A DNA stretch of 64,000 nucleotides, taken from Eledone cirrhosa. Lineage: Eukaryota. The stretch is taken from the NCBI GenBank assembly GCA_964016885.1, contig OZ024740.1, positions 113,150,001 through 113,214,000 of the forward strand, in the 5' to 3' direction. The notes beneath the pieces are model-generated. The model was given only the letters and a program-made list of their open reading frames with translations. It was not told the origin of the DNA and did no database searches. Of this stretch, positions 2,391-60,165 are shown one piece after another (position 1 is the first letter of the stretch; every line of letters begins with the position of its first letter). The position numbers and the translations under genes are program-made.

Positions 2391-2632
2391 ACCCCGATTG
2401 TCATAGGAGCACTAGATACTACCTCAAAGAGTTTCCAAGGATGGTTAAAGAAGATTAGTCCAGCCCCGCTTTTTGGAACACTTCAAAAGTCATCCTTGCT
2501 GGGAACAGCAAGAACCCTCCGATACGTCCTGAATATCTGAGGCTGCAGGTAGCGGCTTGATATTCATTTCAACAAACTTTCCAGTTAAAAAACATCAATG
2601 ACTGAGACTCAAAAAACAATAATAATAATAAT
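2391..2632 (+). mobile_element. R4/Dong-type (RLE) non-LTR retrotransposon, 3' fragment with (AAT)n tail
   Basis: Translation PIVIGALD...LQKSSLLGTARTLRYVLNI* matches the RLE C-terminus (compare VVVGALG...IQKVVLMGTAHILRKILSI* at 15109); short 3' UTR then AATAATAAT. Confidence 0.75.
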
Positions 2633-2911
2633 GATTTCATTTATTGGCCACAAGGGCCGACATGTAGGGGACAATACAAAGACAGGGACAGTGGGGGGTT
2701 TACAATAAGGTGGAGTAAAAGTGCACAATGGCAAGACTAATTTAACAATGAAGATATAAAAATATAAAATAAACTATGCATAAATACAACAAATAAATTC
2801 CCCGATAGGGGGTGGACGACCCTGGGGTGACTCGGGTACCCCACCAATCCAGAACCACCCGGCGCTTCTAGGGCACCCAGGGAGAGCACCCCTCTCCTCA
2901 AGTTAGCTAGC

Positions 2912-5900: not shown

Positions 5901-6145
5901 CATTCCAGTCCCCCGCTAACAGTAAAGGCCGAGACGTACCCAGAAAGGTCTCCAGGCGCCTAAATAAGTCCGGTCGTCCGGCCCCTGTAGGGGCGTAGAC
6001 GGCCAGCAGTCTAAAGGCACCACCTTCGCTACTGCTCACATCCAAGACCACAAACTTACCGTCCGGGTCCCGGAAGATCGACCTTACCTCGAGATCTAGT
6101 CCTTTCCTAAACAACACTGCCACCACACCACCCATTCCCGGTGAG
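2912..6145 (-). pseudogene. Tx1 copy A ORF2 (EN-RT-CCHC), frameshifted, N-terminus deleted
   Basis: Pieces in ORFs 5881-6183, 5087-5848, 4302-4976, 4148-4528, 3833-4117 and 3192-4076; ends NGPTLTIRL*. Confidence 0.85.
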
Positions 6146-7535: not shown

Positions 7536-7734
7536 GTTTTTTTTTGGTGGGGAAGCGATTTTTTTTCGAAGTTTTTTAAAATAAATCTGAATATTCGGGC
7601 TTAAAGCCCGAATATTGAGAGGTATCCCTCTCTTGAAACCAAGATGTGTACCTTATGTTTCGTTAACGACAAGAAAATGCAAAAAGTTATACTTTAAAAC
7701 AGCTTAAAGTTACGAATCTTTTCCCCCGCAAAAT

Positions 7735-7841
7735 AACCAGTACATTACTGGTACCTTATTTTATCGATCCCGTAAGGATGAAAGGCAAAGTTAACCTCGG
7801 CGGGATTTGAACTCAGTCCCTAAAAGGACGTAACTGTGCTG
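7735..7841 (-). mobile_element. SINE family 1, partial; left arm of an inverted pair
   Basis: Reverse complement of 7858-7962 with few mismatches. Confidence 0.85.
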
Positions 7842-7842
7842 T

Positions 7843-7994
7843 GGACGCCATGCTTTGCAGAACAGTTACGTCCCTTTAGGGACTGAGTTCAAATCCCGCC
7901 GAGGTTAACTTTGCCTTTCAACTTTACGGGGTCGATAAAATATAGTACCAGTAATGTACTGGCTAATTGCTGGCCTTGTGCCAAAAGTAGAAAA
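7843..7994 (+). mobile_element. SINE family 1, 5'-truncated; right arm of the inverted pair
   Basis: B box GAGTTCAAATCC, central GCCTTTCA...GGGGTCGATAAAAT...GTACCAG, tail GGCCTTGTGCCAAAAGTAGAAA. Confidence 0.9.
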
Positions 7995-11159: not shown

Positions 11160-11191
11160 TACTTTCTCACTTGCCCCGTTCCTCACCCAAC

Positions 11192-14100
11192 ATGGCTGTA
11201 TTCAGGATCGGAAGTGTAAACGTGCGTGGCTTGAGATCGGATTGGAAACAGGGTCACTTGCTTAACGACCTCAGATCACTAAACATAGATGTGGTGGCCA
11301 TCAACGAGACCAGAATCTCCGAAACGCAAGCTTTCGCACCGATCTTCGACGGTTACGAGGTGTACGCATCTCCGTGCCGTCCTGGAGCGGGGGGCGCAGT
11401 GGTTGTGTTGGTCTGGAAAGGCTTGGGTCTCGCCATACGGACCATCTTCCAGGACCCAGAAGGTAAGTCGGTGTGCTGGACGTAAGCGGCACAGAAGGCA
11501 ATGCTTTCAGGCTAGTAGCCCTCTATGCCCCGACATGGGCAGGACGGCCAGATTTCTTCAGACGTCTAGAGACCTTTCTTGGAACGTCCCGCTCTTTAGT
11601 GTTAGTGGGCGACTGGAATTGTATCTTGGATGCATGCTGGGATTGTGTGGGGCCAGTGGGTAGGGGAGGAATGTGCAAGAGCCTCACCAACCTGCTCAGA
11701 CGCTTTGAACTGTCTGACAGGTATCGACTGGATCACCCGGATGTGCCAATGTGGACATGGACAAACCGCATCGGGTCATCCAGATCGTATCTCGATAGGG
11801 TATTCTGCAGAGAACTAGATAAGGGTAGCATAAGTTGTCGACAATTTAAAATAGTCGACAGACTTCATAGACAAGGGCCCGGTTACTAGCAGCTGAATGC
11901 GTCTTTCCCAGCGCGCAAAGCCTAGAGAAACCGGATTAGCGGATTAGTTAAGCGGGCGTTGACGGGAGCGGTCGTCAACAACAGGTGGTGGTTCGTCCTG
12001 AAAAGGGCAATTAAAGTAGAGTTGATTAGGTTTAGCAAAGGAGTAGTGATAGAGAAAAAATAGAGTAGAGGGAGAGCTAGTCAGAAAGCTAGAAGAGGCG
12101 TTTAGGACAGGCATCGCAACCGACATGTTTGCGGCGAGATTGGCACTCGATCAATTCTTCAACGCAAGACACGAAGGCTGCGTTGTCAGAGCTAGAACGC
12201 GTGCTCTGAAATACGAGGGGACAAAAGCCGTCCAATGAGCCCCGGTGGCAGAGGCGCGAAGTGGCAACAAAGCCACAATTCAGTCTTTGTCTGACCAAAA
12301 CGGGTGCGTGATGCTCGAATCCGAGCGGATGTGTGAAGCCTTTCAGCAACACTTTGCTGAACTGTTCGGGAGCAGCGGCGGAACGGATTGGGGAATGGAC
12401 TTCAGTGCATACCTCGACGGACTGCCTCGGCTCTCGACGACCGCAGTACAGTGTTGCAAAAAAACCAATAACAGCCGGTGAAATATGGGAAGCGATGGCT
12501 ACCTGCACGAGGGGTAAATCGCCAGGTTTGGATGGTCTGCCCTACGAGCTTTATGCATTTATGCCAGACTTGTTCGGTAACCTCTTGGCAGACGTCTACT
12601 GCAACTGGCAGCAGAACGGGAGCATTCCCAGTTTTGTGAGCCGGGGAGCGGTGGCGCTGCTGAGAAAAGACCCGAACAAGGGGATGCTATCGATAATTTC
12701 AGGCCCATAAATCTGCTAAACGCAGTGTTCAAGATTTTGGCCAAGGTGTTAGCAACGAGGTAGGCGCTTGTCGTCAAGGGTCTGGTGGGAAAGGCGCAGA
12801 CATGCGCCATTCCGGACAGATCCATACACGACAACCTCCACCTCATGCGATATATCATAGAGAGGGTGGTTAAGGAACCTGGCACGGGTGGAGCCCTGAT
12901 CAACTTGCATCAATCCAAAGCATTCGATAGGGTCGCTCATCGGTACCTGGCAGCGGTCATCGAGGCAGCCAGTTTCGGGCCCGTTTTCAGTGGATGGATC
13001 ACAGCGCTGTACAGCGACATCTGCTCAGTTGTGAGGGTGAACGGTCACCTGTCGCAGCCGTTCAGAATCATGCGCTCAGTTCGCTAGGGTTGTACCCTCT
13101 CGTCCCTCTTGTACGTATTGGCTCTCGAGCCGTTACTGCACAAACTGGGGGCGATGAGGGGCGTCCCACGCGAACTAGGATGCGGGAGATCCGAGTCGGC
13201 TTGCACCGACGACGTTACCGTTGTGGTGTCGAGCACCAGACACGTCCAGATTCTCGGCACCGTTCTCAAGGAATACGAAGCTGTGACAGGAGCAAAGATA
13301 AACCAGGAAAAGTCAGTGGGCTTGCAGCTCGGCAACTAGAGAGGCAAGTTCATGCCGTCCGACAGCGTCGTGGGGCCTTGGACGGATGGACCGCTTAAAT
13401 TGCTCGGGGTCTGGTTCGGACCGGATGGAGAAAAATGGAACGATGTGGCAAGGTGGCCTCCCTCACCCAGAAATGAGCCGAGAGGAAGCTGTCACCGAAA
13501 GGACAGGCCGAGGTGGCGAATGCGTACATCGAATCCGTCATCTGCTACCGCCTCACCGTCGTCCGTTGCTCCGGCCCAACTCTCACCAAAATGGAGCGCC
13601 TCCTCTTCCGCTTTTTGCGGAAGGGACGCGCTCCCATGGTCAGACGATCCATTTGCTGTCAACACCCGTTGCGTGGAAGACTGGGCATGCCATGGCTGAT
13701 GATCCGCAAACATGCACTGAGGCTGCGACATCTCTGGTACTTCCTTGACGGTGAACAGGTGTGGTCGCCGTTCGCCAGGCACGTTTTCCCACAGCTCGTC
13801 TCCTTGACGGGGCTGCAGTCCTGGCTCAGAAAAAGACCGAGGGATAGCGCTTGGAAACTGGAATGTCTCCAGGCGCTCACTGCCCTCTGCCAGCTGGGCA
13901 TCAGTATCGGGAGAACATCCACCTCGGCACATCCACCTCGGCGTTCTATAGAGAACTAGTGGAGGGGAAGAGCGACGACGTTCTCGGAGAGATACTGGGC
14001 GTCGAAGAAGATCAACTATTTGTTCTCTTCCGGAGAACTTTCAGCCCAGGTCTATGGATAACGTCCAAAAATCCCTGGCCTGGCAGTGCTACCGGGGAGC

Positions 14101-14565
14101 GCTGCCGGTTCGAGATAAGCTCTACAGGCATAGAAGTGCCGTCAGCCGAGCCTGTCCGAGATGCGCGCAGAGCGACGAAACCGTCGTGCACACACTCGTT
14201 CAGTGCCCGAGCATTGCTGACTTGTGGAGCCATGTCGAACAGTTGCTGTCGCGTGTAGAACTGATCTGGTTATCGACTGAGTCCATTGTGCAGATGGTCT
14301 CGCGGTCTTCCTTCGAGGAGGAAGGGCAGGCGATTTTCATCTGATGGCCATGGCGAAATAGATTGTGTGGTGGACAAGATTGAAAGGGTTAAAGACAGAC
14401 ACTTTCCTCTTCGGCGAATCCCTAATTAACTTTTTCAAGTTTCACTTGAAGAGGAAAATCAGGGTGGAGAGGCAAGTGCTGGCTTCTAGCAAGTTTGTTG
14501 AAAGGTGGGTGAATGTAGCGAGAATGGTCCGAGTGAGCGGGACCGCTCTGAATATACGTCTGTAG
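11192..14565 (+). pseudogene. Tx1 copy B ORF2 (EN-RT-CCHC) with multiple stops and frameshifts
   Basis: NVRGL, AINET, VGDWNC, KSPGLDGLPYE, HQSKAFDRVAH, ACTDD (YADD equivalent), CPRC...ETVVHTLVQC. Confidence 0.88.
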
Positions 14566-14878
14566 TTTGAGAAATGGAAAAATTGAGAGAGGGCGCTTGC
14601 CCTGGTGGTCAGGGTGGCCGTGGTGTTTTGTGTGGTTTTCGCCACGAGTAACCCTCGGAGGTTCTCCCCCCTATTGTGGGATTTTTTCATTGTTTCAATT
14701 TTCATTTTTATTGTTTATATATATATATTTCTATGTCCTTTTTTTCTTTTCTTACATAATAAAAATATTTACACGCACAAAACCCACATCGTACCGTCCT
14801 GTGCCATCTGTAATGTTTTTCTTGATGTCACCCCTTGTGGCCAATAAAGAAATCATCATTATTATTATTATTATTATT

Positions 14879-14948
14879 CTTTGAGTCTCAGTCATTGATG
14901 TTAGTTAACTGGAAAGTTTGTTGAAATGAATATCAAGCCACTACCTGA
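14879..14948 (-). mobile_element. R4/Dong-type 3' UTR stub
   Basis: Reverse complement of 2546-2613 with about 4 differences; (ATT)n on both sides. Confidence 0.8.
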
Positions 14949-14962
14949 TTATTATTATTATT

Positions 14963-17126
14963 ACAGCTGCATTTATCTTGCTTTATATTTATACGAGTTA
15001 TCACCAAATCACAACCAGTGACCTCAAGAGACAACAAGGTTCGCCATGTTCAAGAAAGAACATATATACACACACATGCATCTTTAGGTGTTTAGACTTG
15101 TGATGTACTTATATTGACAGAATCTTCCTTAGTATATGGGCAGTTCCCATTAGTACTACCTTTTGTATTTCTCCTATACGCGGGTTTCCTGGGATTTGCG
15201 ATAAGTAATCATTAGACCCCTTAGGTATCATTCCTAGAGCGCCTACAACCACTTGTATTGTTTTAGTTCTCAATTTCCACAATTTTCCAATTTCTATCTC
15301 CAGGTCCTTATACTTACTCAATTTTTCAAATGTTTTTATAGATACATTCTTGCCTATTGGAACGGACATATCATTTAGCAGGCATACCCTCTTTTTAAAG
15401 TCCTTCAATATTATATCAGGTCTATTTGCATCTATTTTTCGGTCTGTTTGGATGCTAAAGTTCCACAAGATTGAGATGTGATCTTTTTCAAGTATGGGAG
15501 GTGGTTGATGCTCCCACCAATTCTTTTGATGGGGCAGGTCAAAATGCTTACACATTATCCAATGTATGTATTGTGCAGCTCTGTTATGCCTGTTCAGGTA
15601 TTCGGTTGGGGCTATAGGACTGCACATTGAAATTATATGTTCAATGGTCTCTGGTTGTTTTTTTCATACACGGCATAATGGGCTGCATCCATTTTTTATT
15701 ATGTTGGCTTGGTAATTTTTTGTTGGCAGACACTGATCTTGTGCTGATATAATCAGGCCTTCAGTCTCCGATTTCAGTCCAGAGGATGCCAACCACTGAT
15801 GGGTTAAAGTTTTGTCAACATCAGGATTGTAAGCTCGTTCTGGGTATTTTCCATACAGAGGCTTTTCTTGCCATTTCTTAGCCAGTTTCTGTAGCAGTTC
15901 TTTCTTTGCAGTTACTTTTACCTGCTTTGCTTTTTCTGTGTTTTCCATTTCAGCAGTAAATGGGACTTCTGAAATTTGTAGTCCATTACTGTATCTTTGT
16001 GCATCTTTTGTAATGGAGTATGATCTTTTGATGCTTTCGTGTTTCAAAACGAGTTTGATCATCCAATCATGTGATTCCCTTAGATATGCCAATTGTTGCA
16101 GTTTTCAACGCAATGTCTAACTGGATTAACCCACGTCCTCCTTCTTTCCTAGGGAGATATATTCTATCTGTATCTGCCTTAGGGTGATGCATTCTGTGCA
16201 TGGTTTGGAATTTTCGAATTTTTGTATCGAGCCTACGGATCTCTGTGCTTGACCAGTTGATGACATTGTAACTATAGGTTACTACTGGTATGGCAAGCGT
16301 GTTTATGGCATCGATCCTATTCCTTGCATTCAATTCCGTTCTTAAGATTGCTCTTACTCTGCGGTAACATTCCTTCCTTATCCTTTCCCTGATTGTCGAG
16401 TGCTTGATTCCGTCTCCTTCACAAACAATATTTGTAAGTTTCCTCTTGATCAAGTTCTCTTATCACATTCCCACGATCAAGATTAATGTCTGAACTTTTC
16501 AGCAGCTTTCCTCTGGTGAACGTTGCTTTGGCGCATTTATCTAGTCCAAACTACATTTTAATGTCATCACTGAACTGCTCCACAGTGGATAATAGCCCTG
16601 CAATTGTTCATAATGTTTTGCAAATAGTTTCAGGTCATCCATGTAGAACAAGTGATTAATGGTTTTGTCATAGACTTTATATTCATGTTTTGTTTCATTG
16701 AGCATTTTACTTAATGGTATAAGTGCGAAGCAGAATAAAAGCGGTGATAAAGAGTCACCCTGAAAAATTCCACAATTAATATTAACTTCTCCAGCTTCCA
16801 GTGATTTTGTTTCACTATTCAAAAGGAGTGTCGTTTTCCATGTCTTCATACTGAATGACAAAAACCTCCTGACAACGGGAGATATTTTGAAAATCTCTAA
16901 ACATTTTTCAATCCAACTGTGAGGCAAACTATCGAATGCTTTTATATAATCTATCCAAGCAATTGATAGATTTTTGTGTCTATTATGACAATCTTCTAGT
17001 ATCATTTTGTTAACCAAAAGCTGATCCTTACAGCCATATGAGCCTCGTTTACACCCTTTCTGCTCAAAGGGAAATAGGTCATTTGTTATCAGGTGGTCAT
17101 ATGTATATTCAGTTAGGACTGATGTT
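14963..17126 (-). mobile_element. R4/Dong-type RLE LINE, 5'-truncated (RT + CCHC + restriction-like endonuclease)
   Basis: AWIDYIKAFDSLPH, GIFQGDSLSPLLF, HLFYMDDLKLF, LYLPRKEGGRGL-like motif, YLNRHN, RPDIILKD...DMSVP, KLSKYKDL; (AAT)n tail on the sense strand and (ATT)n at both ends. Confidence 0.92.
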
Positions 17127-19290: not shown

Positions 19291-19328
19291 GGTAAGTATG
19301 TTTCCCATCTTTTCCACTCCATTTCAAC

Positions 19329-22300
19329 ATGACCTCACTCAGAATAGGCAGCATAAATGCGCGTGGCTTGGGGACGACATGGAAGCAGAGCCACCTACTC
19401 AATGACCTCAGGTCACTAAACATAGATGTAGTGGCCATCAGCGAGACCAGAATCTCCGAAGCACAGGCCTTCGCATCGATGTTCGGCGGCTACGATGTGT
19501 ACGCATCTCCCAGCCGTCCTTGATCGGGGGGAGGAGTTGCTGTGCTTTTTCGAAGAGGTTTGGATCTCGCCATACAGGCCATCTTCCTGGACCCAGAAGG
19601 TAAGTTGGTGGTGCTGGACGTGACCAACGGAGACGGGCAAGATTTCAGGCTAGTGGCCGTCTATGCCCCGACAGAAGCAGGGCGGCCTGATTTCTTCCGG
19701 CGTCTGGAGACCTTTCTTGGAACGTCCCGCACTTTAGTGTTAGTGGGCGACTGGAACGGGATCTTAGATGCACGCTTGGACTGTGTGGGATCAGCGGATA
19801 GGGGAGGAGGGTGCAAGAGCCTCACCAACCTGCTCAGGCGTTTTAAACTGTCTGACATGTACCGATTGGATTTCCCGAATGTGCCAATGTGGACTTGGAC
19901 AAATCGCATAGGGTCATCCAGATCATATCTAGATAGAGTATTTTGTAGGGAAATAGATAGGTCTAGCATAGGCTGTCCACATTTCAAGATAGTCTGCTAC
20001 ACGGACCACAAATTCGTGATCTGTGTGTTTGACTTAGATAAGCTTCATAGACGAGGACCCGGCTACTGGAAGCTAAACGCGTCCTTACCAGCGCACAAGG
20101 CCTACAGAGACCGGATTAGCTAACTAGTTAAGCGGGCGTTGACGGGTGCCATCGTCAACAAGTGGTGGCTTGCTCTGAAAAGAGCGATTAGAATAGAGTC
20201 CATTAGGTTTAGTAAGGCTTTAGCAATAGAGAAAAATAGAGCAGGGGGAGAACTAGTTAGAAAATTAGACGAGGCGCTTAGCAAAGGTATCACGACCGAC
20301 GTACTTGCGGCGAAATTGGCCCTTGACCAATTCTTCAATGCAAAGCACGAAGGCTGCGTTGTCAGAGCTAGGGTGCATGCTCTCAGACACGAGGGCAGGA
20401 AAGCCGTTCAATAGGCCGGAGTGGCGGAGGAGCGTCATGGCAACAAATCCACGATCCGGTCTTTGGTGGACCACGACGGGCGCATGCTACTCGATCCCGA
20501 GCAAATGTGTAAATCTTTTCAGCGACACTTCGCACAGCTGTTCGGGGGCAGCGGCGGGCCGGGTCGAGGTATGGACTTTAGTGTCTACCTCGACGGACTG
20601 CCGCGGCTCTCGGCCACTGAGGCGGATTTTTGCGAAAAGTTGGTAACAGCCGCTTAAGTACGGGAGGCAATGACTGGTTGCACAAGGGGTAAATCGCCTG
20701 GTTTGGATGGTCTGCCCTATGAATTTTACCTACATATGCCATACTTCTTCGGCGGCTTCTTGGCGGACGTCTACTGCAACTGGCAACAGAACGGGAGAAT
20801 TCCCAGCTCTGTGAGCCGAGGAGCTGTGGAGCTGCTGAGAAAAGATCCGAACAAGGGGGATAACATAGATAATTTCAGGCCCATAACTCTGCTAAACACA
20901 GAGTTCAAGATTTTGGCCAAGGTGCTAGCAAAGAGGTTGGCGCTTGTCGTTGGTCGTCTGGTGGGAGAGGCGCAGACATGCGCCATTCCCGACAGATCCA
21001 TCCACGACAACATCCACCTCATGCGATACATCGTAGAAAGGGTAGCTAGGGAACCTGGAACGGGTGGGTCCTTGATCAATTTAGATCAGTCGAAAGCTTT
21101 CGATTTTGTCGACCATCGTTACTTAGCGGCAGTCATGAAGGCGGCCGGCTTTGGGCCCGTCTTCAGAGGCTGGATCGCTGCCATGCACAGCGACATCTGC
21201 TCTGTGGTGAAAGTGAACAGTCACCTTTCAGAACGGTTCAACATCATGCGCTGGGTCCGCCAAGGATGTCCTCTCTCGTCCCTCTTATACGTATTGACTC
21301 TCGAGCCATTACTGGACCGGTTAAATTGCTAGAGGTCTGGTTCGGTCCGGAACTCCAGACGGACAAAAACTGGGATGAGGTGACGAGCAGGGTGGCTTCT
21401 CTCATTTACTACCGCCTGGCCGTTGTATGTTGTGATAAGCCCCGCCTGACTGCGCTGGAGCGTTTGCTCTTTCGCTTTTTGTGGAAGGGACGCGTTCCGA
21501 TGGTCAGACGGTCCATCTGCTGTCAACACCCGCTACGTGGAGGGCTGGGCATGCCGTGGCTGATGATGCGCAGACACGCGCTCAGGCTACGACATCTCCA
21601 CCTCTTCCTCGACGTTGATCAGGTGTGGTCGCCGTTTGCTAGACGCGTCTTTCCCCAGCTCGTCTCCTTGACAGAGCTGCAGTCCTGGGTCAAGCGAAGA
21701 CCGAGAGGGAGCGCTTGGAGACTGGAATGTCTTCAGGCGCTCACAGCCCTCGACCAATCGGGCAATGTGATCGTTGGAGACTCAACCTTGGCGTTCTATA
21801 GAGGATTAGTGGAGGGGAAGAGCGACGACGTACTTGGAGAAACTCTATGCGTCGACGAAAATCAACTAGCCAATCTCTTCGGAAGAACTTTCGGGCCGGA
21901 GCCTATGGACAACTTCCAGAAATCCCTGGCCTGGCAGTGCTACCGAGGAGATTTGTCAGTTCGGGAAAACTCTACAGGCATGGAGGTGCCGTCAGCCGGG
22001 CATGTCCGAGATGAGCACAGGGCGACGAAACCGTCCTGCACGCACTTGTCCTGTGTCTGAGCATTGCTGACCAGTGGGTTTATGTCGAACACCCGCTGTC
22101 ACGTGTAGGACGGACCCAGCTATCAGCTGAGTCCATCGTGAGGATTGCCCCGCCCTCTTCTTTTAGCCGGGAAGGGCAGGAAGTTTTTATCTGTCTGGTG
22201 GCCATGGCGAAAGAGATAGTATGGTGTACACGTTTGAAAGGGCTGAAGACAAGTACTTACCTCTACGGTGATGCTCTGATTAACCTTTTCAAATTTCATT

Positions 22301-22419
22301 TGAAAAGGAAAATCAGGGTAGAGAGGGAAGTTCTCTCTTTCCAGCATTTTGTTGAAAGATGGGTGAGAGAAGCAAGTATGGGCCGAGTGAATGGGCCTAC
22401 TCTGAGTATGTGTTTGTAA
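19329..22419 (+). pseudogene. Tx1 copy C ORF2, disrupted
   Basis: EN 19329-20123, RT 20670-21310, C-terminal 21266-22419; YADD segment missing. Confidence 0.87.
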
Positions 22420-22696
22420 ATTAAAGGCGGAAAACTGGGAGAGAGCACTTGCCCTAGTGGTCAGGGTCACTGTGGCCTTTTAATTGGCTTTCTCCACAAA
22501 CGTCCCTCGGAAGTCTCCCCCCCCCCCCCTATTGGGGAATTTTTCATTGTTTGTTTTTGTTACATCCACTGTTTATGTTTTTTTACACGCAGAAATGCCC
22601 ATTTGTACCGTCCTGTATTGTCCCGTACTGTTGTCCTTAATATCTACTTTATGTAAACCCTTGTGGTTAATAAAGAAAGCATTATTATTCTCCTTC

Positions 22697-22880
22697 GGCG
22701 GTGGATTGGCAGTATCGGTAGAGGGTCGGACGCCATGCTTTCCAGCATAGGTACGTCCCTTTACGATCTGAGTTCAAATCCCGCCGAGGTTGACTTTGCC
22801 TTTCATCCTTACGGGGTCGATAAAATAAAGTACCAGTAATGCACTGGGTAATTGCTGGCCTTGTGCCTAAAGTAGAAACA
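22697..22880 (+). mobile_element. Full-length tRNA-derived SINE (family 1, Meta-domain-like core) with 16-bp TSD
   Basis: A box TGGCAGTATCGG, B box GAGTTCAAATCC, core GCCTTTCATCCTTACGGGGTCGATAAAATAAAGTACC; TSD ATTATTATTCTCCTTC at 22681-22696 and 22881-22896. Confidence 0.92.
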
Positions 22881-22908
22881 ATTATTATTCTCCTTCTTCT
22901 TCTTATTA

Positions 22909-29336: not shown

Positions 29337-29342
<6 letters not shown>

Positions 29343-29881
29343 GATTGGCGCTCTGAAATAGCGATGTATACATGAATGTATGGATAGTATATTTGGCAAT
29401 ATACCGTATGTTTAATTAAAAACATTTTGAAGACCTTACGCTATCGATTTTAAAGTAGTGACTATGTCACTTACTTCTTTTCGGCGAAAGAAAGGAGAGA
29501 AGCTAACAGTCTGCTTCACGCTGATTGGCGTTCATCAGAACCACGCACTCCCTGCTTCCGCCGAAAATTATAGAAGCTGGATTCTTATAGAATTCCAGTA
29601 ATGATCAGGAGCTGATTATAGAGAACGATTCCGGTCCAGCAAAAATTAGTTATTAGGATTGGTGCTCTGATATAGCGATGTATACATGAATGTATGTATA
29701 GTATATTTGGCAATATAACGTATGTTTACATCATGAAACAGACAGTTAGCTTCTCTCCCTTCTTTCGCCGAAAAGAAGTAAGCGACATAGTCACTACTTT
29801 AAAACCGATAGCGTATGGTCTTCAAAATATTTTTAATTAAACATACGGTATATTGCCAAATATACTATACATACATTCATA
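29337..29881 (-). mobile_element. Non-coding Penelope-like/retrozyme-like unit (partial tandem + inverted arm) in (AT)n
   Basis: Direct repeat 29337-29414/29651-29728 (period 314); inverted repeat ~29382-29520/29731-29881; hammerhead motif inside. Confidence 0.7.
29501..29542 (-). ncRNA. Hammerhead ribozyme motif (one core mismatch)
   Basis: Minus strand GGUU-CUGAUGA-ACGC-CAAUCA-GCGU-GAAG-CAGACUG-UUA; the inverted copy at ~29735 reads GAAACAG, restoring GAAA. Confidence 0.65.
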
Positions 29882-30028
29882 TATATATATATATAAACAA
29901 TGAGTTAGAGACTTTGTTGATATGCAATAACAGAGTTATGTTCATAACAGACACGAAACACTTGACAGAAAAATTTGTCTGAAGTATTATGATAACGATG
30001 TTATATTGTTATATCTTCCGTTTATTAC

Positions 30029-31331: not shown

Positions 31332-31547
31332 GGCGGTGGATTGGCAGTATCGGTAGAGGGTCGGACGACATGTTTTGCCGCATACAGTTATGGCCCTTTA
31401 TGATCTGAGTTCAAATCCCGACGAGGTTAACTTTGCCTTTCATCCATACGTGGTCGATAAAATAATGTACCATTCACGCACTGGGGTCAATTTCATCGAC
31501 TTTTCCCTCCCCCAAAAATTGCTGGCCTTGTACCTAAATAAGAAACT
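31332..31547 (+). mobile_element. SINE family 1, full length
   Basis: GGCGGTGGATTGGCAGTATCGG head, B box, core and tail. Confidence 0.88.
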
Positions 31548-31825
31548 ATTATCTATAGTTAACTAGCTAGCGTAATGTACCCCCACCCTCTCTCACTTTA
31601 TATATATGTGTCTGGCGTGTATGTGTCTGGTGTGTATGTGAGGGTGTGCCTCTCTCTATTACTCTCTCACTCTGTGTGTTCGTGCGTCTAAATATACATG
31701 ATTCCAGAATATAAAACAGAATCACCAACTGAATATTAATGTGGGAGAGAGAGGGTGTCGGGAAAATAGTGATAGATAGATAAATATATAAATATATGAA
31801 CACATAAATACAGCGAGGGAAGGGC

Positions 31826-33725: not shown

Positions 33726-34479
33726 CATTATAATGATATAGATTTTTAAGGTGGCTACAAGGTATATATTTTGTGGTGGCGGGTAAGAAACAGGGAAATA
33801 TATCAACTCCAGATGTTGATTGGTATTAGTTCTTTTATCGATCTACGGAAGAATGAAACAGGGAGTTGATAAAAGTAGGATTTGAACTGAAAACACCAAA
33901 TGACAATATATAGGTAGCAATGTAGCAGAGTGGTGGTTATATTTTAGTTCAATAATGTTTACTGGTGTTTGTCCTGACTAACTGCGAACTGAGTTCAAAT
34001 CCCACAGACGCCAATTCTGCCTTTCATCCAATCTTTGTGGATACAAAGAGCACACATCCAGGACAGCAGATTGCCAGAATTTTTATAACGGCAGATAATT
34101 GTTAGAACTTTGCTTAAATTATTCGCTACGGTTAATTACGTTCTGAGTTCTTGAGTTGTAGACTTAATTTGTTATCTGGTTTAATATTATAACTTAGTCA
34201 TGCTTACAAAACCATATTTGGAGATATATTTTAATCTTTGAAACATGTAAGGGTTAACATCTTGTGTTCTTCTGTGTACAGGAGAATAACAAAATGTGTG
34301 TTTACACTTGATTATTTTCACAGCGATGCTTATAATTTAAAATTTCTTAGTTAAATCTGTATTAAATCTCTTACATTTCCTACTACATGCCTTGTTGTGT
34401 ATAAATATTTATTTGTTATCACTATTGTTGATGCTGCTACTACTGCTACTATTGTTTTCGTTGTGATTGTTATTCTTAC

Positions 34480-35054
34480 GGTGGTGGATTGGCACAATCG
34501 GTAGAGCGTCAGACATCATCCTATGTAGTATTTATTCCACTTCTTCAAGTTCTGTGTTCAAATTTCACCGAGGTTACCTTTGCTTTTCGACCTTTCGCGG
34601 CCAATAAAATAAAGTACCAGTAAAGTACTCTGCATCAATTGCTGGACATGCGACCGAATTAGAAATCATTGTGAATTGGCAGTATCGGTAGAGGGTTGGA
34701 TTATGCTTTCCAGCATAGTTACGTCCCTTTACGATCTGAGTTCAATTCCCGCCGAGGTTAACTTTGCCTTTCATCCTTACGGGGTCGATAAAATAAAGTA
34801 CCAGTAATGTACTGTGATAATTGCTGGCCTTGTGCCAAAAAGTAGAAACAATTATTATTAATATTGTTGGCGGTGGATTGGCAGTATCGGTAGAGAGTCG
34901 GACGCCATGCTTTGCCGCAAAGAGTTACAGACCTTTATGGTCCGAGTTCAAATCCCGGCGAGGTTAACTTTGCCTTTCATCCTTACGGGGTCGATAAAAT
35001 AAAGTACCAGTAATGCACTGGGTATTTGCTGGCCTTGTGCCAAAAGTAGAAACA
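34480..35054 (+). mobile_element. Three SINE family 1 copies in head-to-tail tandem (34480-34668, 34671-34850, 34869-35054)
   Basis: Three successive head/B-box/core/tail units separated by short ATT-rich linkers. Confidence 0.9.
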
Positions 35055-35079
35055 GTTATTATTTAAATATAAAAACAAA

Positions 35080-41170: not shown

Positions 41171-41187
41171 AACTTTTCAGAACCAAC

Positions 41188-44100
41188 ATGGCCAATATAA
41201 GAGTTGGATGTGTTAATGTACGCGGCCTGGGGATGCCCTGGAAACAGGGCAAACTCTTAAACGACCTCAGGTCGCACAGTATGGATGTAGTAGCCATTTG
41301 CGTGTCCAGGATCCACAGCGAGCGACAGCTGGCCCCCATCTTCGATGACTTTGAGATCTACGCATCTCTCTGTCGGCCGGGGGTGGGTGGGGGGGTGGGG
41401 GGTTGCCGTTTTGCTGCGGATACACCTAGGCCTCGTAACACAGACGGTACATCTGGACCCGGAGGGTCTACTGGTGGTACTAGACGTTGACGGTAGTGAA
41501 GGTGGAGCCTTCAGGCTGGTGGCCGAATATGCCCCATCCGGAACACCGCGGCCAGACTTCTTCAAACGTCTAAAGACTTTTCTGGGAACGTCCCGCTCCT
41601 TGATTTTAGTGGGGGACTGGAATGGAATCCTAGATGGACGTTGGGAGCATGTCCCGATAAAGGGGGGTGTAACAGCCTCAAAGAGTTGATCGGCCGATTT
41701 GACCTGGCCGATAGATATCGACTAGATTTTCCGACTGTGCCATTGTGGACGTGGACTAATCGTAGCGGAACATCTAGATCGCACCTAGATAGGGTTCTAG
41801 TTAGAAATAAGGATAGGGACATGTTGAGCTGTCCACAAATGTCCATGGTTGCCTATTCAGATCACAAACTAGTGACCTGCATAGTCAACCTTGATAGAAC
41901 CCATAGACAAGGACCCGGTTACTGGGAGCTGAATTTGTCCTTACCGACATGCAACAGTAGACGGATTAGCACTTTAGTTAAACAGCACTTGACAGGGGCT
42001 ATTCTCAACAACAGATGGTGGTACTCTCTCAAGAGGGTAGTTAGATCAGACTCGTTAGTTTTTAGTAAAGAATTAGCGTTAGATAGAAATAGAACCGAGA
42101 AGGAACTGGTAGATAAAGTAGAAGAGGCAATTAGAAGTGACAACATAGCCAGCGTGCTAGCAACGAAAACGGCCTTGGACCAGTTCTTCGACGCAAAGCA
42201 CGAGCGCTGCGTTGTCAGAAGCAAAATACGTGCTCTGGCAAACGAGGGAGCCAAAGCTGTTAGCTGGGCCCGAGTGACGGAGGCAAAAAGTGGCAACAAG
42301 TCCCACGATTCGGTTTATGAAGGACCCAAACGGACGCGTGATACGTGAGCCGAAGCAGATGTGTGCAGCCTTTCAGCGGCACTTTGCTCAACTGTTCGGG
42401 CAGGGCGGCGCGCCGGGAGTGGCTATGGATTTCGGTCCATACTTGTACGGCCTACCGCGACTCTAGGACAGCGAGGCAAAGTTCTGCGAAAAGCCGATTT
42501 CAGCCGCTGAGATAGGGGACGCGCTGAGCCAATGCGGCAAACTCAAATCTCCACGTCTCGACGGTCTACCCTACGAATTTTACGTAGCAATGCCGGACTT
42601 ATTCTCCGGTCTCCTGGAAGCGGTCTGCTGCAACTTGCAACAGAACGGGAGAATTCCCAGTACTGTGACCGGGGGAGTAGTCACACTAGTCAGGAAGGAC
42701 GAGAATAAGGGAGATGACATAGGCAACTTCCGCCCCATAAGTCTGCTAAACACAGAGTTACAGATTTTGGCCAAGGTGTTGGCAAAGAGGCTGGCGCTTG
42801 TCGTCGAGAACCTGGTTCATACACGACAACCTCTACCTCATACGATACACCATAGAGAGGGTAGGGTGTAAACTCGGCTGCGGTGGGGCCTTGATCAACT
42901 TGGATCAGTCTAAGATAGGGTTGACCATCGTTACCTGGATGCGGTGCTCGAGGCGGCAGGCTTCGGACCCGTGTTCAGTGGCTGGATTGCTGCAATGCAC
43001 AACAGCAACATCTGCTCAAGGGTCAAGGTGAACGGCTACCCCTGGAGCCGTTCCATATCACGCGATCCATCCGACAGGGATGCCCTCTTTCCTCCCTTCT
43101 GTACGTACTGACTCTCGAGCTACTACTGCGGAAGTTGGAGCTATTGCCGGGCATCCCTCTGGAACCGGGACTGCGGAAAGTGGCGTCGGCCTACGCCGAC
43201 GACGTGACAGTAATGGTGTCGAGCGCCTCGCAAATCGAGGAAGTCGGCACCTTACTGAAGGAATACAAAAGGTTCACAGGAGCGAAGCTGAACCGGGACA
43301 AGTCTATCGGTTTGCAACTCGGATGATGGAGAGCCAAACCGATGCCTTCCGATGGCGTCGTCGGATGCTGGACGGAAGGACCAGTAAAGCTGCTCGGGGT
43401 CTGGTTTGGTCCGGACCTCCAGGTGGAGAAGAACTGGAACGGCCAAGGTGTTTGCACTCACCCAGAAGTGGGCCGAGTGCAAACTATCCTTGAAAGGTCG
43501 AGCGGAAGTGGCGAACCCTTTTATAGCGTCGGCCATCTACTACCGCTTGACCGTCGTGCCTTGTCCAGCCAAAACGCTCACCAAAATGGAGCGCGCGCTC
43601 TTCCAATTCCTTTGGAAGAGGCGGGCTCCTTTGGTGAGAAGATCTATCTGCTGCCAACACCCTTCCAACGGATGGCTGAGGATGCCGTGGCTGACATTGC
43701 GCAAACACGCGCTCAGGCTGCGGCATCTCTACGTATTCCTCACATGACAACCGGTGTGGGCCCCGTTCGTGAGGCGAGCCTTCCCACGACTCGTCTCGCT
43801 GACCGATAGCAGTCCTGGGTCAAGCAAAGACCGAGGAACATGGGCGACTGGCACAACGAATGTGCTCAGGCGCTCACAGCCCTCTGGCAGGCGGACCTGG
43901 CGATCAGTGGAGACTCCACTTTGTCATTCTATAGAGGGTTGATCCGCAGCAAGTGCGACGACACGCTCGGTGAAACTCTAGGCGTAGAGGAAGACGAACT
44001 GGCCAGTCTGTTAGGTAGGACCTTCCGCCCGGGACCGATGGACAACTTCCAAAAGTCCCTGGCCTCGCAGTGCTACCGAGGAGCTCTACTAGTTCGAGAC

Positions 44101-44373
44101 AAGCTCTACAGACATGGGCGCCCGGGCAAGGACGCTGCAAAAAAGTTCTGTCTGAGGTGCGTGCGAGACGAAGAAACCGTCGCGCACGCATTAATACACT
44201 GTCCGCGCGTCACCGACCTGTGGGGCTATGTAGAACGACTATTGTCGCGGGTGGGACCAATCCGGTTGACCACCGAGTCCATTGTCATGATCAAACTGCC
44301 ACCCTCCTTCAAAAACGAATGAGAGGCGGTTTTCCTTTGTGCGATAGATATGGCGAAAGAGGTTGTATGGTGG
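41188..44373 (+). pseudogene. Tx1 copy D ORF2, disrupted and interrupted near its C-terminus by (ATCT)n
   Basis: EN/RT/Zn motifs across ORFs 41188-44322; homology stops at ...KEVVWW. Confidence 0.86.
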
Positions 44374-44379
44374 GCATCC

Positions 44380-45040: not shown

Positions 45041-45082
<42 letters not shown>

Positions 45083-45280
45083 GGTAACAAATAAATAAAG
45101 TTAACTAGAACTTCAAAAATAGATACCTTTTAATGATTAATGAGACGAAGCAGCTATGATGTGTAAAAACAACACGTGGTAACGGCCAGTTGAAGATTTT
45201 GACTCGAAGTGTAAACATGGATTGCTGGAATATTGTTCTTCCTTGTTGATAATCCAATAATATCCACTTTCTGTGACTTA

Positions 45281-45330
45281 CCATCTGATTAATTGGTGAA
45301 ATATATTTCTTTAATGAAATATATTCAGGG
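45281..45330 (+). ncRNA. Hammerhead-like motif, copy 1 (CUGAUUA variant)
   Basis: CCAU-CUGAUUA-[AUUGGUGAAAUAUAUUUCUUUAAU stem II]-GAAA-UAUA-UUC-AGGG; palindromic AAUAUAUU. Confidence 0.55.
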
Positions 45331-45848
45331 AAGATTAATCATTAAAAGGTATCTATTTTTGAAGTTCTAGTTAACTTTATTTATTTGTTACCTACTAGCC
45401 ATGCGTGGTTACACGCTTGTAAAAATTATCTCCTGTGATTATTCATGTTTATATTTATTTATATATATGTTGATCAATTTCTAGTTATTATAAAATGCTC
45501 GCACCTACAAAGTCTTTGAGCTTATTTTCCGGGCGATATGGCGCACGCCGTTAAGGCATGACACCCACAATTTCGATTTAGATTGAATTCATTTAATTTA
45601 TCTTAATTTTGGATATAGATATATAAATACGGCTCCTTAATTGTAGAGCTAACTCTGTTGAAAGGAATTGACTGGTATTTCTAGTTGTCGAATACCTATT
45701 CACACCACTGAGACGAAGCCGCTATGATGTGTAAAAACAACACGTGGTAACGGCCAGTTGAAGATTTTGACTCGAAGTGTAAACATGGATTGCTGGAATA
45801 TTGTTCTTCCTTGTTGATAATCCAATAATATCCACTTTCTGTGACTTA

Positions 45849-45898
45849 CCATCTGATTAATTGGTGAAATATATTTCTTTAATGAAATATATTCAGGG
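45849..45898 (+). ncRNA. Hammerhead-like motif, copy 2
   Basis: Identical to 45281-45330. Confidence 0.55.
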
Positions 45899-46117
45899 AA
45901 GATTAATCATTAAAAGGTATCTATTTTTGAAGTTCTAGTTAACTTTATTTATTTGTTACCTACTAGCCATGCGTGGTTACACGCTTGTAAAAATTATCTC
46001 CTGTGATTATTCATGTTTATATTTATTTATATATATGTTGATCAATTTCTAGTTATATATATATGTATATACATATGTGTGTGTGTGTTTAAATATATAT
46101 ATATATATGTATATATG

Positions 46118-49200: not shown

Positions 49201-49588
49201 AAAAAACAAAAAAAAACTAACGATGGAATACAGCTTACTTATGTTATTTCGCTTTTTTTTTATATGCTCAGTGTTGACATATGGTGCCCATCCTCTCCGT
49301 TTTATTTTTTATTTTCTTTCTAATTTTATTTTTTTTTAAATCCTAACCAATCAGACGCAAGAGAAGCTGACATTCTCAGAACACTCCCTCAGTGAATAAG
49401 TATTTTACCTTTATAGACACACCCCTTCAACTCTCTTTCCTTCACATATGATACCAAACATTCATCAATGCCATTGTCACCCTCAATCTACACCCCTGCT
49501 TTATTTATTTACATATTATTTTACTTTCAATTCTTATTTTATCTGACTTTTATCTTATTGTCTCACATCACAATACTCTTTCATCTCA

Positions 49589-49773
49589 TTGTGGTTTGGT
49601 AGTATCGGTAAAGCGTCTGACACTACGTTTTGCAGCATAGAGTCGCTGCCCTTTATGATCTGAGTTCAAGTTCCGCCGAGGTTAACTTTGCCTTTCATCC
49701 TTACGAGGTTGATAAAATAAAGTACCAGTAATACAGTGGGTTAATTGCTGGCCTTGTGCCAAAAGTAGAAACA
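49589..49773 (+). mobile_element. SINE family 1, full length
   Basis: Head, B box, core and GGCCTTGTGCCAAAAGTAGAAACA tail. Confidence 0.88.
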
Positions 49774-50022
49774 ATTATATTCCTCTGCCTCATTTCGCTA
49801 TACTTTTCATCTTGTTATTTTTCATGTCATTATTTGTACACCCCAGTATAAATACGTTGTATCACCAATACCGAACTACTATTTGGCTGGTGGTAATTGC
49901 ACTTAAAATCGATTGTCAAAGCAGCACCGCAGATAGCGATTATTAGATACACCTAGCCAATGAAACATTTGTTAATACTTTGAATAAACCCTACTGTATA
50001 GCTGTTTTGTTTGTTTGTTTTC

Positions 50023-50619: not shown

Positions 50620-50683
50620 CACACACACACATATACATACATAGCTACATATATAAAATAATCTGCCTTTGTTCTCATTGATA

Positions 50684-50745
<62 letters not shown>

Positions 50746-51085
50746 CATATATTATTTATCAGTGATAAGAAAGGCAGGTTATTTTACACATATCATTCAT
50801 TGTTGTACGATTGTTTCGGAGGGTTCATCATAACGATATATTGACTGATCTATAGCAGTTAGAGAACTATATTCTATCAGATATAATATATGGGTCCGAT
50901 CATACCATCTTCTTTGGAAACAATCAAATATATATATATATATATAATATATATATACACACAAATTCATGTACAGTATGTATATGTTTATGTAAAATAT
51001 ATGTAACATATAAATATATATATCAACTAAATCACAAATACTACATGTATTAACTTCTGTATATAAGTAGACACACACACATACC

Positions 51086-52085: not shown

Positions 52086-52194
52086 TTCTTATGTATATAT
52101 ATATATATATATATATATAGGAACGAGTAGGACCCCGACGGCTGAGCTCAAGCCGTTTCGACGGCTAATTCAGGACTATATATATATATATATA

Positions 52195-52867
52195 TAAATA
52201 TAAGTATGTATACGTACATACATATATGTATACAGAGGTACAGTAGTATGTATATATATACATACATGCACACATACATATATGTACGTATGGATTTACC
52301 AAATATTTATTATAATGATCGGTTTGTTTGTAAACAAACAGCCCGAATTATGCAGTACAGTGTCTAGCAACCATCGTTGCATATTTGTTCAACACTGACA
52401 AAGGAACGCTGTACTAGTTTCAAGCTTATTAGCTATCGTCAGCACCGTATACCTTCCTGCCAGGTGATTGAACGTCTGAAAGTATATACTTTCTTTATGC
52501 ATATTAACAGCTGAACAGCCTAATTTGCATATCGAGTTAGTTAATCGGCCGGGCACACTGAAAACGATAAATGGAAAAAATGAAACGAAATTTCATTTCT
52601 CACTCTTAGTGCGGTGTCGAACAAAAGGGCAACGATGGTTGCTAAACACTGTACGGCTTAATTCGGGCTGTTTGTTTACAAAAAAACCGAGCATTATAAT
52701 AAATGTTCGGTAAACCATACGTACATATATATATGTGTGCATGTATGTATATATATACATACTACTGTACGTCTGTATACATATATGTATGTACGTATAC
52801 ATACTTATATTTAAGTAACAGCCGTACTAAGAGTGAGAAATGAAATTTCGTTTCATTTTGTCCATTT
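52195..52867 (-). mobile_element. Non-coding hammerhead-bearing fold-back unit in (AT)n
   Basis: Inverted repeats 52195-52396/52613-52813 and 52569-52614/52822-52867; hammerhead in the spacer. Confidence 0.72.
52408..52446 (-). ncRNA. Minimal type-I hammerhead ribozyme
   Basis: Minus strand GGUG-CUGACGA-U-AGCU-AAUA-AGCU-U-GAAA-CUAG-UA/CAGC: intact core, palindromic ACUAGU, GUA cleavage triplet, stem I 3 of 4 pairs. Confidence 0.78.
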
Positions 52868-56017: not shown

Positions 56018-56286
56018 TATATATATATATATATATGATCGACCATAAGATCAGGTGGATTCAGCTCGCTACCACTTTTAAAGAAGAGGTGTCTAGCCGA
56101 AACTTCCTGAGCTCACTGACGATTCTTTACTTTACTAATGTGTATATACAAGGAAATTTCATTTAAAATTTGATCTATTTTCTGACTATTCATAGTGATT
56201 CTAACATTTCCAGCATAACAAATTCTGTGAGATCATGATCATTATAATCATCCCTTAAAAGGGATGATTATAATTGTAGAGTTACA

Positions 56287-56411
56287 CCCCTTTATAGTCT
56301 GTGTTCACATCCCGTTGAGGTTCACTTTGCCTTTCATCCTTACGGGGTCGATAAAATAAAGTACCAGTAAGGTACTGGGTAATTGCTGGCCTTGAGCCAA
56401 AAGTAGAAACA
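56287..56411 (+). mobile_element. SINE family 1, 5'-truncated
   Basis: Core and tail nearly identical to the consensus. Confidence 0.85.
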
Positions 56412-56417
56412 ATTCTA

Positions 56418-56930
56418 ATCATCCCTTTTACGTCCGCTTTTCCACGCTTGTATTGGTTGGACGGGTCCCTTCCAGTACAACATCTCTCCACTCGTCGTGT
56501 TCCTTCTTATCTCCTCGATGAATCTCATCGATTTAAGATCATCAGCTCTCACCACCTCTACACAGGTCTTCCTCCGTCAGCCTCTACTGCGGACTACTTC
56601 CACTGGTATTTCCTGACACTTCCACACACACCAATATTCGTCTATGCCCAACATGTGTCTGTACCAACACATTCTTCTCAAACCAACACATTCTTCTCAA
56701 ACCAACACATTCTTCTCAAACCAACACATTCTTCTCAAACCCAGCTTCTCCCTTAGCTCAACCTACCTTTCTCTCACATTTACATTGCACATCCAATGAA
56801 GCATAGTTGCTTCATTTCTCTCCAGTCTACGCATGTCCTCTGCAGTCACAGCCCATATTCCATTACCATGCAACATCGCACTTCGCACACTGACATCATA
56901 CAGTCCTCCTTTTATACGTAGAGAGAAATC
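56418..56930 (-). mobile_element. RTE-type LINE 3' fragment with internal 20-bp tandem repeat (56662-56741)
   Basis: Minus strand reads ...GLYDVSVRSAMLHGNGIWAVTAEDMRRLERNEATMLHWMC..., an RTE thumb-region motif; ACCAACACATTCTTCTCAAA x4. Confidence 0.7.
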
Positions 56931-57136: not shown

Positions 57137-57315
57137 ATGGCAGTATCGATAGATGATTAGACGCTATGGTTTGCAGCATAGAGTTACGGCCATTTACGGT
57201 CTGAGCTCAAATCTCGCCGAAGTCAACTTTGCCTTTCATCCTTACGGGGGTCGATAAAATAAAGCACCAGTAATGCACTGGGGTAATTGCTGACCTTGTG
57301 CCAAAAGTAGAAACT
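57137..57315 (+). mobile_element. SINE family 1
   Basis: TGGCAGTATCG head, core and tail. Confidence 0.85.
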
Positions 57316-58145
57316 ATTGTGTCCCACGTCATAACGCTAAACGCTCTTCTCCACAACTTCGGATATTTTCAAGGCGCTGCTACACGACAAAAATATTTAC
57401 TTCTTTATATATTGTTTGGAAGGAAATATATATTTAATTTAGTTGCAGAAATTCATATTAGCTATGATACTTTAGAGTTCAATAATACGGCCTCCCTGAA
57501 ATCTGTGACCTGTGCGGCTGCCTAGTTAGTCTTAATGGTAGTGCCTGTTCTTCCCCAGAGCATTTCAATCAACCTCGATGCGGTAAACATGCTTTAAAAT
57601 GAATGATTTCAATCAACGGTATTGCCAATCGTCTGAACTAGACAAGATTAATGGAGGGAATAACTGACAATGGTCTTGGAAGAATACTAGTTGTCAACCA
57701 GTTGAATATTCGTAGTCTTTTCAGTAGGGCTTTCAGGTTCGGGATTATGAACATTCCAAAATGTTCTTAATCTCATAGTGTTTTTGAAATGGCATATTAT
57801 ATATATATATATATATATATGAGTCTGTTCATTGTAATGTGTGTCTTTGTGTTAAACAGCTGTTAACCAGTGTATTTCTAGGAAGTCTGAGTAACACGTA
57901 GCGATCTCCGTTTTGATCCGAAATAATGTTTGTTGGTGTCGACGTATGTACGACATTAAGTGCGTGACAACAAAACGTTCGTGCCGTTGTAAATGACAGA
58001 TTCGCGAAGATTTGGAAGAAATTCACACACTCACGTACATACAGATGTATATAGAAATAAATATATATATATACATACATAATATTAACATTTGTACTGC
58101 CTCTTTGCTTCCACGTTGTTTTTTTGTTTTCTGTTTACTGTCTCA

Positions 58146-58185: not shown

Positions 58186-60165
<1,980 letters not shown>

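What the first reader, a model, noticed from the sequence alone, without database searches (positions are those of the whole stretch)
52195..52867. Inversion breakpoints cluster near the predicted ribozyme cleavage site
Seen: here the inverted arm stops at ~52396, about 15 nt 3' of the predicted GUA cut (52412/52411, minus strand). At 45 kb the inverted arm starts at 45334, 8 nt after the UUC at 45326. At 29 kb the inverted copy begins within the GAAA box, about 15 nt before the cut. At 50.7 kb the arm ends at ~50790, about 15 nt from a GUA at 50806. The 59.4 kb unit does not fit (arm ~165 nt downstream). Inference: the inverted arms are cDNAs that ran to the 5' end of a ribozyme-cleaved RNA, which would be a genomic footprint of in vivo self-cleavage.
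Basis: inference. Interest (0 to 1): 0.7.

Follow-up and report, generated by a model that had tools for sequence, protein, structure and literature searches.

The report
Retrotransposon arms ignore ribozyme cut site
The flipped ends of these Penelope-type jumping-gene copies mostly run straight through the predicted ribozyme cut instead of stopping there, and where they do stop sharply it is at a likely transcription start, so the genome likely records where the RNA begins rather than where it cuts itself.

Summary
The coordinates are mostly right, but the five units are unrelated Penelope-like/retrozyme families. Tested on genome-wide samples, the claim fails for the family at 52 kb: 83 of 88 cDNA passes cross the predicted cut, and the stop rate at +1..+20 is 0.76 times background. 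The 29-kb (1.0) and 59-kb (0.36) families also show no clustering. The 29-kb window arm runs 13 nt past the cut, and the 50.7-kb 'arm' is not a 5' inversion. Only the 45-kb family clusters near its cut (rate ratio about 4, with some joins exactly at +1); cleavage and stalling at a stable fold both fit. Sharp walls do exist elsewhere. In a sixth family (52120-52178, the pLTR of a 3.5-kb ORF-bearing element; 11,813 hairpin-like copies), arms cross the cut and stop at -44, an initiator-like TCATTT. The 50.7-kb family stops at a similar motif at -118. The two arms of an inversion start at different RT start sites in 171 of 180 classifiable cases, which points to twin priming on one RNA. The scan noted the general retrozyme/inversion layout before, on nearby DNA (e1-9572504). 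No RNA data were available.

The parts
52195..52613 (-). Sense copy of the 52-kb family (about 425-430-nt tandem monomer), ending at RT start site A (+213) in (TA)n
52406..52448 (-). Minimal type I hammerhead motif (CUGACGA box, GAAA, palindromic 2-bp stem III); predicted cut 52412|52411
52614..52867 (+). Inverted arm of the same family, from +17 to RT start site B (about +270)
52120..52178 (-). Short copy of a sixth family (pLTR of a 3.5-kb ORF-bearing element): starts at -41/-40 (the family wall), crosses the predicted cut (H17 at 52137), ends at RT start +17
45141..46054 (+). 1.6 monomers of the 45-kb family (period 568)
45237..45334 (+). Hammerhead-like fold with UUGANAA box, 9-bp stem I and 9-bp stem III; predicted cut 45325|45326
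45079..45141 (-). Inverted arm of the 45-kb family, ending at +9
29340..29728 (-). Sense copy of the 29-kb family (period 314); hammerhead cut 29505|29504
29734..29888 (+). Inverted arm of the 29-kb family; runs 13 nt 5' past the cut
50755..50924 (-). Copy of the 50.7-kb family (degenerate core CCGAAGA, predicted cut 50806|50805); 5' end at -118, the family wall
50650..50690 (+). Short second copy facing the former 3'-to-3' across (TA)n; not a 5' inversion
59420..59792 (+). Sense copy of the 59-kb family (period 516); hammerhead cut 59500|59501
59354..59419 (-). Inverted arm of the 59-kb family, ending at +153

Best explanation
These inverted Penelope-type copies are likely made by twin priming, in which the two DNA ends of a break in a (TA)n tract each prime reverse transcription at one of two fixed sites on the same RNA, and most arms cross the predicted ribozyme cut, ending either at scattered points or at a sharp wall that is likely the transcript's start. 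The two cDNA 3' ends are then likely joined through short microhomology. The templates were therefore mostly uncleaved or re-ligated RNA. In the 45-kb family a minority of cDNAs stop at or just after the cut, through cleavage or through stalling at a stable fold. Shown: two 3' end sites per family, the A/B pairing of arms, the end distributions and the walls. Inferred: one shared RNA, transcription start as the cause of the walls, microhomology repair.
For: Stops per nt at risk, +1..+20 against flanks, in loci anchored away from the cut: 52-kb family 4/1720 vs 36/11751; 59-kb 1/1157 vs 20/8358; 29-kb 5/1035 vs 35/7223. Passes reaching +21 and still running at -3: 88 to 83, 58 to 57, 55 to 50. 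Cores are mostly canonical in these families (92 of 107, 44 of 49 and 24 of 35 regex-matched copies among the six commonest classes printed). Among near-symmetric 52-kb inversions (first 50 of 140 listed, sorted by eye), 12 arms end at -2..+3 and 47 pass upstream, as a uniform model predicts (p 0.44). Outer ends are A/B in 99 of 105 classifiable inversions of four families (25 more unclassifiable) and in 72 of 75 of the sixth family (3 unclassifiable). Sixth family, 248 5' ends: 199 reach +4, 194 pass -3, 86 reach -39, 13 pass -56. It has 11,813 near-symmetric hairpins genome-wide. Of 61 listed places where an arm reaches -44, 20 are the same both-arms-at--44/-43 join and 4 continue upstream (by eye). 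50.7-kb family: 17 of 30 copies reach -100 and 12 of these stop at -125..-100. Two RT start sites, and insertion from unprocessed RNA, were shown in vitro for an anole PLE (PMC11167929).
Against: The 45-kb family does cluster: 13/1201 vs 23/8724, rate ratio 4.1, or p 0.004 counted per insertion. Eight of its 32 near-symmetric joins have both arms at +1..+4, two of them blunt at exactly +1 (by eye; two may be one duplication). The 29-kb near-symmetric set also leans to the cut (8 arms at the cut, 5 upstream; p 0.004 under a model that probably overstates upstream ends), though a palindrome sits at +1..+4. The initiator motif is recalled, short, and not in every long copy (TTATTT in L544, L549, L551). 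A cap-templated base was not convincing. Circles made by cleavage and ligation would also give read-through.
Confidence: 0.72

Rival explanations
1. One reading: arms run to the 5' end of ribozyme-cleaved RNA in all families.
For: 45-kb family excess at +1..+20, a drop in stop rate upstream and blunt joins at +1. That family has a fully paired 9-bp stem III and a variable N7 with conserved neighbours.
Against: No excess in the 52-, 59- and 29-kb families. The 29-kb window arm crosses the cut. The walls in two families lie 44 and 118 nt upstream. Even in the 45-kb family, 52 of 66 passes cross the cut.
Confidence: 0.1
2. In the 45-kb family alone, a minority of templates were self-cleaved, and both cDNAs ran to +1 and were trimmed back to the GATTAATC palindrome.
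For: Peak at +6..+9 with a downstream tail. 17 of 50 listed near-symmetric joins centre on that palindrome (by eye). Weak-homology joins sit at +1 and none on the adjacent TATATA palindrome.
Against: Normalised by anchor frequency (31, 17, 47), near-symmetric joins are dense both just downstream (82) and upstream of the cut (about 19 of 32) compared with the +97 control (25). The whole folded region (z -3.9) is a hot zone, which fits RT stalling. The core departs from consensus, stem II has two alternative pairings, and covariation does not beat shuffles.
Confidence: 0.4
3. The RNAs are cleaved and ligated into circles in vivo, and rolling-circle reverse transcription erases any footprint of the cut.
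For: Arrays of 4-5 tandem monomers. Metazoan non-LTR retrozymes are expressed as circles (PMC7229834). This is compatible with read-through.
Against: It does not explain the walls at -44 and -118, which need a linear 5' end. No RNA evidence here.
Confidence: 0.35
4. Palindromic junctions arise by fold-back self-priming of one strand, as proposed for rotifer Penelope elements.
For: Joins favour local palindromes. Proposed in PMC3846280.
Against: A simple fold-back should copy the same outer end, yet the outer ends differ (A/B) in 171 of 180 classifiable cases.
Confidence: 0.12
5. The -44 wall is an RT stall or a host nuclease cut in the U-rich loop of stem II, not a transcription start.
For: The wall sits in a variable A/U-rich loop, extra A/T runs occur at some joins, and there is no clear cap base.
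Against: The edge is nucleotide-sharp, and a second unrelated family stops at a similar TCATT motif outside any loop.
Confidence: 0.25

Closest known systems
Penelope-like elements with inverted 5'-truncated pLTR copy and optional tail (PMC8557442; PMC3846280)
   Same: Inverted 5'-truncated copy, tail at one end only, (TA)n targets, hammerhead in the pLTR; one family here has a pLTR-ORF-pLTR master (L541).
   Different: Tails here are 27 to 137 nt (about 58, 137, 27, 71 and 83 nt), not 30-40. In the passages read, those papers do not map arm ends to the ribozyme or to a transcription start.
PAc (Poseidon) internal initiation at two sites (PMC11167929)
   Same: Two fixed RT start sites downstream of the hammerhead, both target strands extended, unprocessed RNA as substrate.
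   Different: In vitro the two strands showed no difference in start site. Here genomic inversions pair site A with site B in 171 of 180 classifiable cases.
Metazoan non-LTR retrozymes (PMC7229834; bioRxiv 10.64898/2026.07.22.740005)
   Same: Non-coding 314-568-nt tandem monomers with type I hammerheads, thousands of copies, PLE-like ends.
   Different: Circular RNA expression and cleavage were not tested here. 'Inverted' does not occur in the main text of PMC7229834.
L1 twin priming (recalled, no call)
   Same: Both ends of a break prime on one RNA and give a 5' inversion with microhomology.
   Different: In L1 the second primer anneals at variable internal sites and the arms barely overlap. 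Here both primers use fixed neighbouring sites, so the arms overlap and form palindromes.

Membership tests
Type I hammerhead (52-, 29-, 59-kb families) | CUGANGA and GAAA cores with NUH and stems I-III | tested here: met
   the 52-kb family has U-U at 10.1/11.1
Type I hammerhead (45-kb family) | Consensus core C3 and G8 | tested here: not met
   The box is UUGANAA in 73 of 77 copies, N7 varying. That a U3-A8 pair can replace C3-G8 is recalled; a C3G/G8C rescue is reported in PMC11167929.
Type I hammerhead (45-kb family) | Three conserved helices | tested here: inconclusive
   Stem I 92% and stem III 98% paired in 18 sequences, but covariation not above shuffles; stem II ambiguous
Type I hammerhead (all) | Self-cleavage activity | not testable with these tools
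   needs in vitro transcription; Rfam gave no match at gathering score
Metazoan non-LTR retrozyme | Non-coding tandem monomers of a few hundred nt, each with a type I hammerhead | tested here: met
   periods about 425-430, 516, 568 and 314; arrays of up to 5 cut motifs; no tandem seen for the 50.7-kb family
Metazoan non-LTR retrozyme | Expression as linear and circular RNA | not testable with these tools
   needs RNA reads or northern blots
Penelope-like element | Inverted 5'-truncated copy and tail at one end | tested here: met
Penelope-like element | Single ORF with RT and GIY-YIG between pLTRs (sixth family) | tested here: inconclusive
   L541 is pLTR-ORF-pLTR with a unit of 3,522 nt. A cysteine linker, VIY..YIG and C-terminal Cys/His motifs were read by eye (motif meaning recalled). 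Pfam matched 0 of 4 pieces and PDB 0 of 1.
Penelope-like element | Autonomous partner for the 52-, 45-, 29-, 59- and 50.7-kb families | tested here: inconclusive
   An ORF scan of 510 loci (output partly cut) showed PLE-like ORFs nearby but none clearly continuous with these monomers

The most novel reading that the evidence does not exclude
Penelope-type elements insert by paired priming on one RNA, with site A on one DNA end and site B on the other. Both cDNAs can run off the capped 5' end, which in one family lies inside the ribozyme, so its own mRNA starts with half a hammerhead. About 12,000 genomic hairpins then map that start to the nucleotide, and in the 45-kb family the same readout captures true self-cleavage at +1.
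Probability: 0.4. Interest if true: 0.65.

Novelty: new member of a known kind. Interest (0 to 1): 0.48.

Why it matters
The role of the hammerhead in Penelope-like elements and the origin of their inverted repeats are both open (PMC8557442). These counts give in vivo support, from DNA alone, for the in vitro result that uncleaved RNA is the usual template. They also show that the two arms use different start sites almost every time, which favours twin priming over fold-back. Arm ends can be used to map RNA 5' ends from a genome sequence. The 45-kb family is a ready test case for cleavage.

Tried and rejected
Rfam: no match at gathering score over the window; only microsatellite-driven hits among the 150 of 156 shown at E up to 1 for 28-62 kb. 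RNA evidence: no RNA holder listed. Laying three contig sets of one sample gave no start or end information. The first 45-kb sample was anchored at +23, next to the cut, and was set aside as biased; it was replaced by loci L441-L510 anchored at +143. The best-hit loci from DNA searches (L001-030, L101-220) were left out of the rate tests. Pile-ups at microsatellite edges were alignment artefacts and were filtered. My prediction that a full stem III gives a wall at the cut failed in the sixth family, although its short transcripts would lack the first core box. A cap-templated base at -44 was not convincing. A splice acceptor as cause of the walls (the D. virilis intron ends at helix I; PMC4209133) was considered: the -118 wall has no AG, and the -44 arms join directly. 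No protein atlas result was obtained. Literature searches found no paper mapping arm ends to the cut or start: (0 papers for twin priming + Penelope + inverted + ribozyme). The library lacks most subscription papers, and no supplements were read; those of PMC11167929 (Fig. S2) may bear on this.

Full report
Setting. The window lies in G000 (3.0 Gb). A masked self-BLAST shows that the units at 29, 45, 50.7, 52 and 59 kb do not match each other. Each is a large family, with exact motif hits of 11,643 (52 kb), 111 (50.7 kb), 1,018 and 1,837 (45 kb), 2,020 (29 kb) and 864 (59 kb). Four are tandem monomers of 314-568 nt with one type I hammerhead motif each, inserted in (TA)n.

Observation. Positions are counted from the predicted cut. 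The window's arms end at +17 (52 kb), +9 (45 kb), -13 (29 kb) and +153 (59 kb). The 29-kb arm includes sequence 5' of the cut, which contradicts a cleaved template. The 50.7-kb copy is a 3'-to-3' neighbour, not a 5' inversion. From family-wide rates, three of four within 20 nt has probability 0.023.

Test 1: stop rates. I took loci found by an exact motif away from the cut: 70, 65, 55 and 70 loci for the 52-, 59-, 29- and 45-kb families. They came from the first 100 listed hits of each pattern, all on contig C1; not every listed place was fetched, and five 29-kb loci were picked for having inverted pairs. I tiled them against natural monomers and counted 5' ends per base at risk. Rate ratios for +1..+20 against flanks were 0.76, 0.36, 1.00 and 4.11. 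Passes reaching +21 and still running at -3 were 83 of 88, 57 of 58, 50 of 55 and 52 of 66. The family named in the finding shows no clustering. The samples are small, so a stop in a few percent of cDNAs is not excluded.

Test 2: near-symmetric inversions genome-wide. Counts were 140 at the 52-kb cut against 59 at a control site (not normalised for anchor conservation), 9 for the 59-kb family (two not of the family) and 35 for the 29-kb family. For the 45-kb family they were 82, 32 and 25 at anchors +25, +4 and +97. Arms were sorted by eye from the listed rows. In the 52-kb family 12 end at -2..+3 and 47 pass upstream, matching a uniform model (p 0.44). The 45-kb family gave 13 and 4, the 29-kb family 8 and 5, the 59-kb family 4 and 4. 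That model overstates upstream ends when joins are symmetric, so the small p values are not to be taken at face value.

The 45-kb exception. Ends peak at +6..+9 and stay raised to +40. Ten insertions contribute, p 0.004 before correction for four families. Eight of 32 symmetric joins have both arms at +1..+4, two blunt at +1, and none centres on the TATATA palindrome beside it. Against cleavage: about 19 of those 32 have both arms upstream, so the whole folded region is hot; the fold is stable (z -3.9); and the core is the non-consensus UUGANAA without significant covariation. I put a cleavage contribution at about 0.4.

Two start sites. Every family has two 3' end sites: about +213/+271, +167/+304, +141/+168, +222/+293 and +17/+100. 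In inversions the two outer ends are A and B in 99 of 105 classifiable cases and 72 of 75. This matches the tail and the two RT start sites of PAc (PMC11167929; parts 1-2 of 4 read). It argues against simple fold-back (PMC3846280; passages read).

Where arms do stop. The 59-nt piece at 52120-52178 belongs to a sixth family (10,070 hits). It is the pLTR of a 3,522-nt pLTR-ORF-pLTR element (L541); Pfam and PDB gave no match. Of 248 5' ends in the 540 loci then held, 199 reach +4, 194 pass -3, 86 reach -39 and 13 pass -56. A divergent subfamily may add false ends at -30. In the 30 pattern loci alone, 26 of 60 ends lie at -43..-38 and 2 at -2..+3. There are 11,813 near-symmetric hairpins, with varied junctions among the 50 listed. 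Among 61 listed places where an arm reaches -44, only 4 continue. Position -44 is the A of TCATTT, between the two halves of the hammerhead core. The 50.7-kb family has a wall at -118, the A of TCATTG. Both resemble an initiator (consensus recalled). Penelope has an internal promoter (PMC2377424; passages read), and initiator-like motifs were noted in rotifer pLTRs. The start-site reading is an inference.

Mechanism. The endonuclease likely cuts both strands in (TA)n, and each end primes at site A or B of one RNA. Each cDNA runs until it falls off or reaches the RNA's 5' end, and the two ends join with short overlaps (junction gaps). Read-through of canonical cores means uncleaved or re-ligated templates. 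It does not show that cleavage never happens, since retrozyme circles are known (PMC7229834; passages read).

Literature seen. PMC8557442 (passages), the bioRxiv preprint 10.64898/2026.07.22.740005 (parts 1-2 of 5), PMC4209133 (passages), PMC7761336 (passages), PMC7151607 (passages). The elements are new members of known kinds. The end mapping was not found in the searches listed.

Verdict. The finding as stated is largely refuted for its own locus. A weaker version may hold for one family. The by-products, A/B pairing and walls at likely start sites, are what merits follow-up.

Noticed in passing
window 58607-58855 and 59018-59266: A 249-nt inverted pair, 100% identical, around a microsatellite, nested within a 93% inverted pair at 58186-58492 and 59854-60165. 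A young symmetric insertion or an assembly fold-back.
   Followed up: no
59-kb family, +145..+176 after the cut: Stop rate 7.7 per 1000 against 0.7-4.1 elsewhere, in an AT-rich tract next to the search anchor. The window's +153 arm falls here.
   Followed up: partly
window 45246-45252 and family: The first core box is UUGANAA with N7 = A 42, U 20, C 10, G 1 of 77 copies, a conserved non-consensus hammerhead variant.
   Followed up: partly
window 2546-6141, 11187-14947, 19325-22678, 41183-44376: Four diverged (67-79%) copies of a LINE with endonuclease- and RT-like ORF pieces; clade not tested.
   Followed up: no
window 15109-17125, minus strand: A broken non-LTR element with RT and a C-terminal Cys/His, restriction-like domain by recalled motifs.
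   Followed up: no
window 7731-7993, 22681-22890, 31332-31552, 34466-35070, 49586-49785, 56277-56423, 57138-57321: An abundant SINE-like repeat of about 200 nt, one copy folded as a palindrome at 7731-7968.
   Followed up: no
L133, L141, L165, L194 and others: Further hammerhead families with canonical cores and a TATATA stem III lie beside the sampled copies.
   Followed up: no
L163: Repeated short restarts of one element end inside a (TA)n tract.
   Followed up: no
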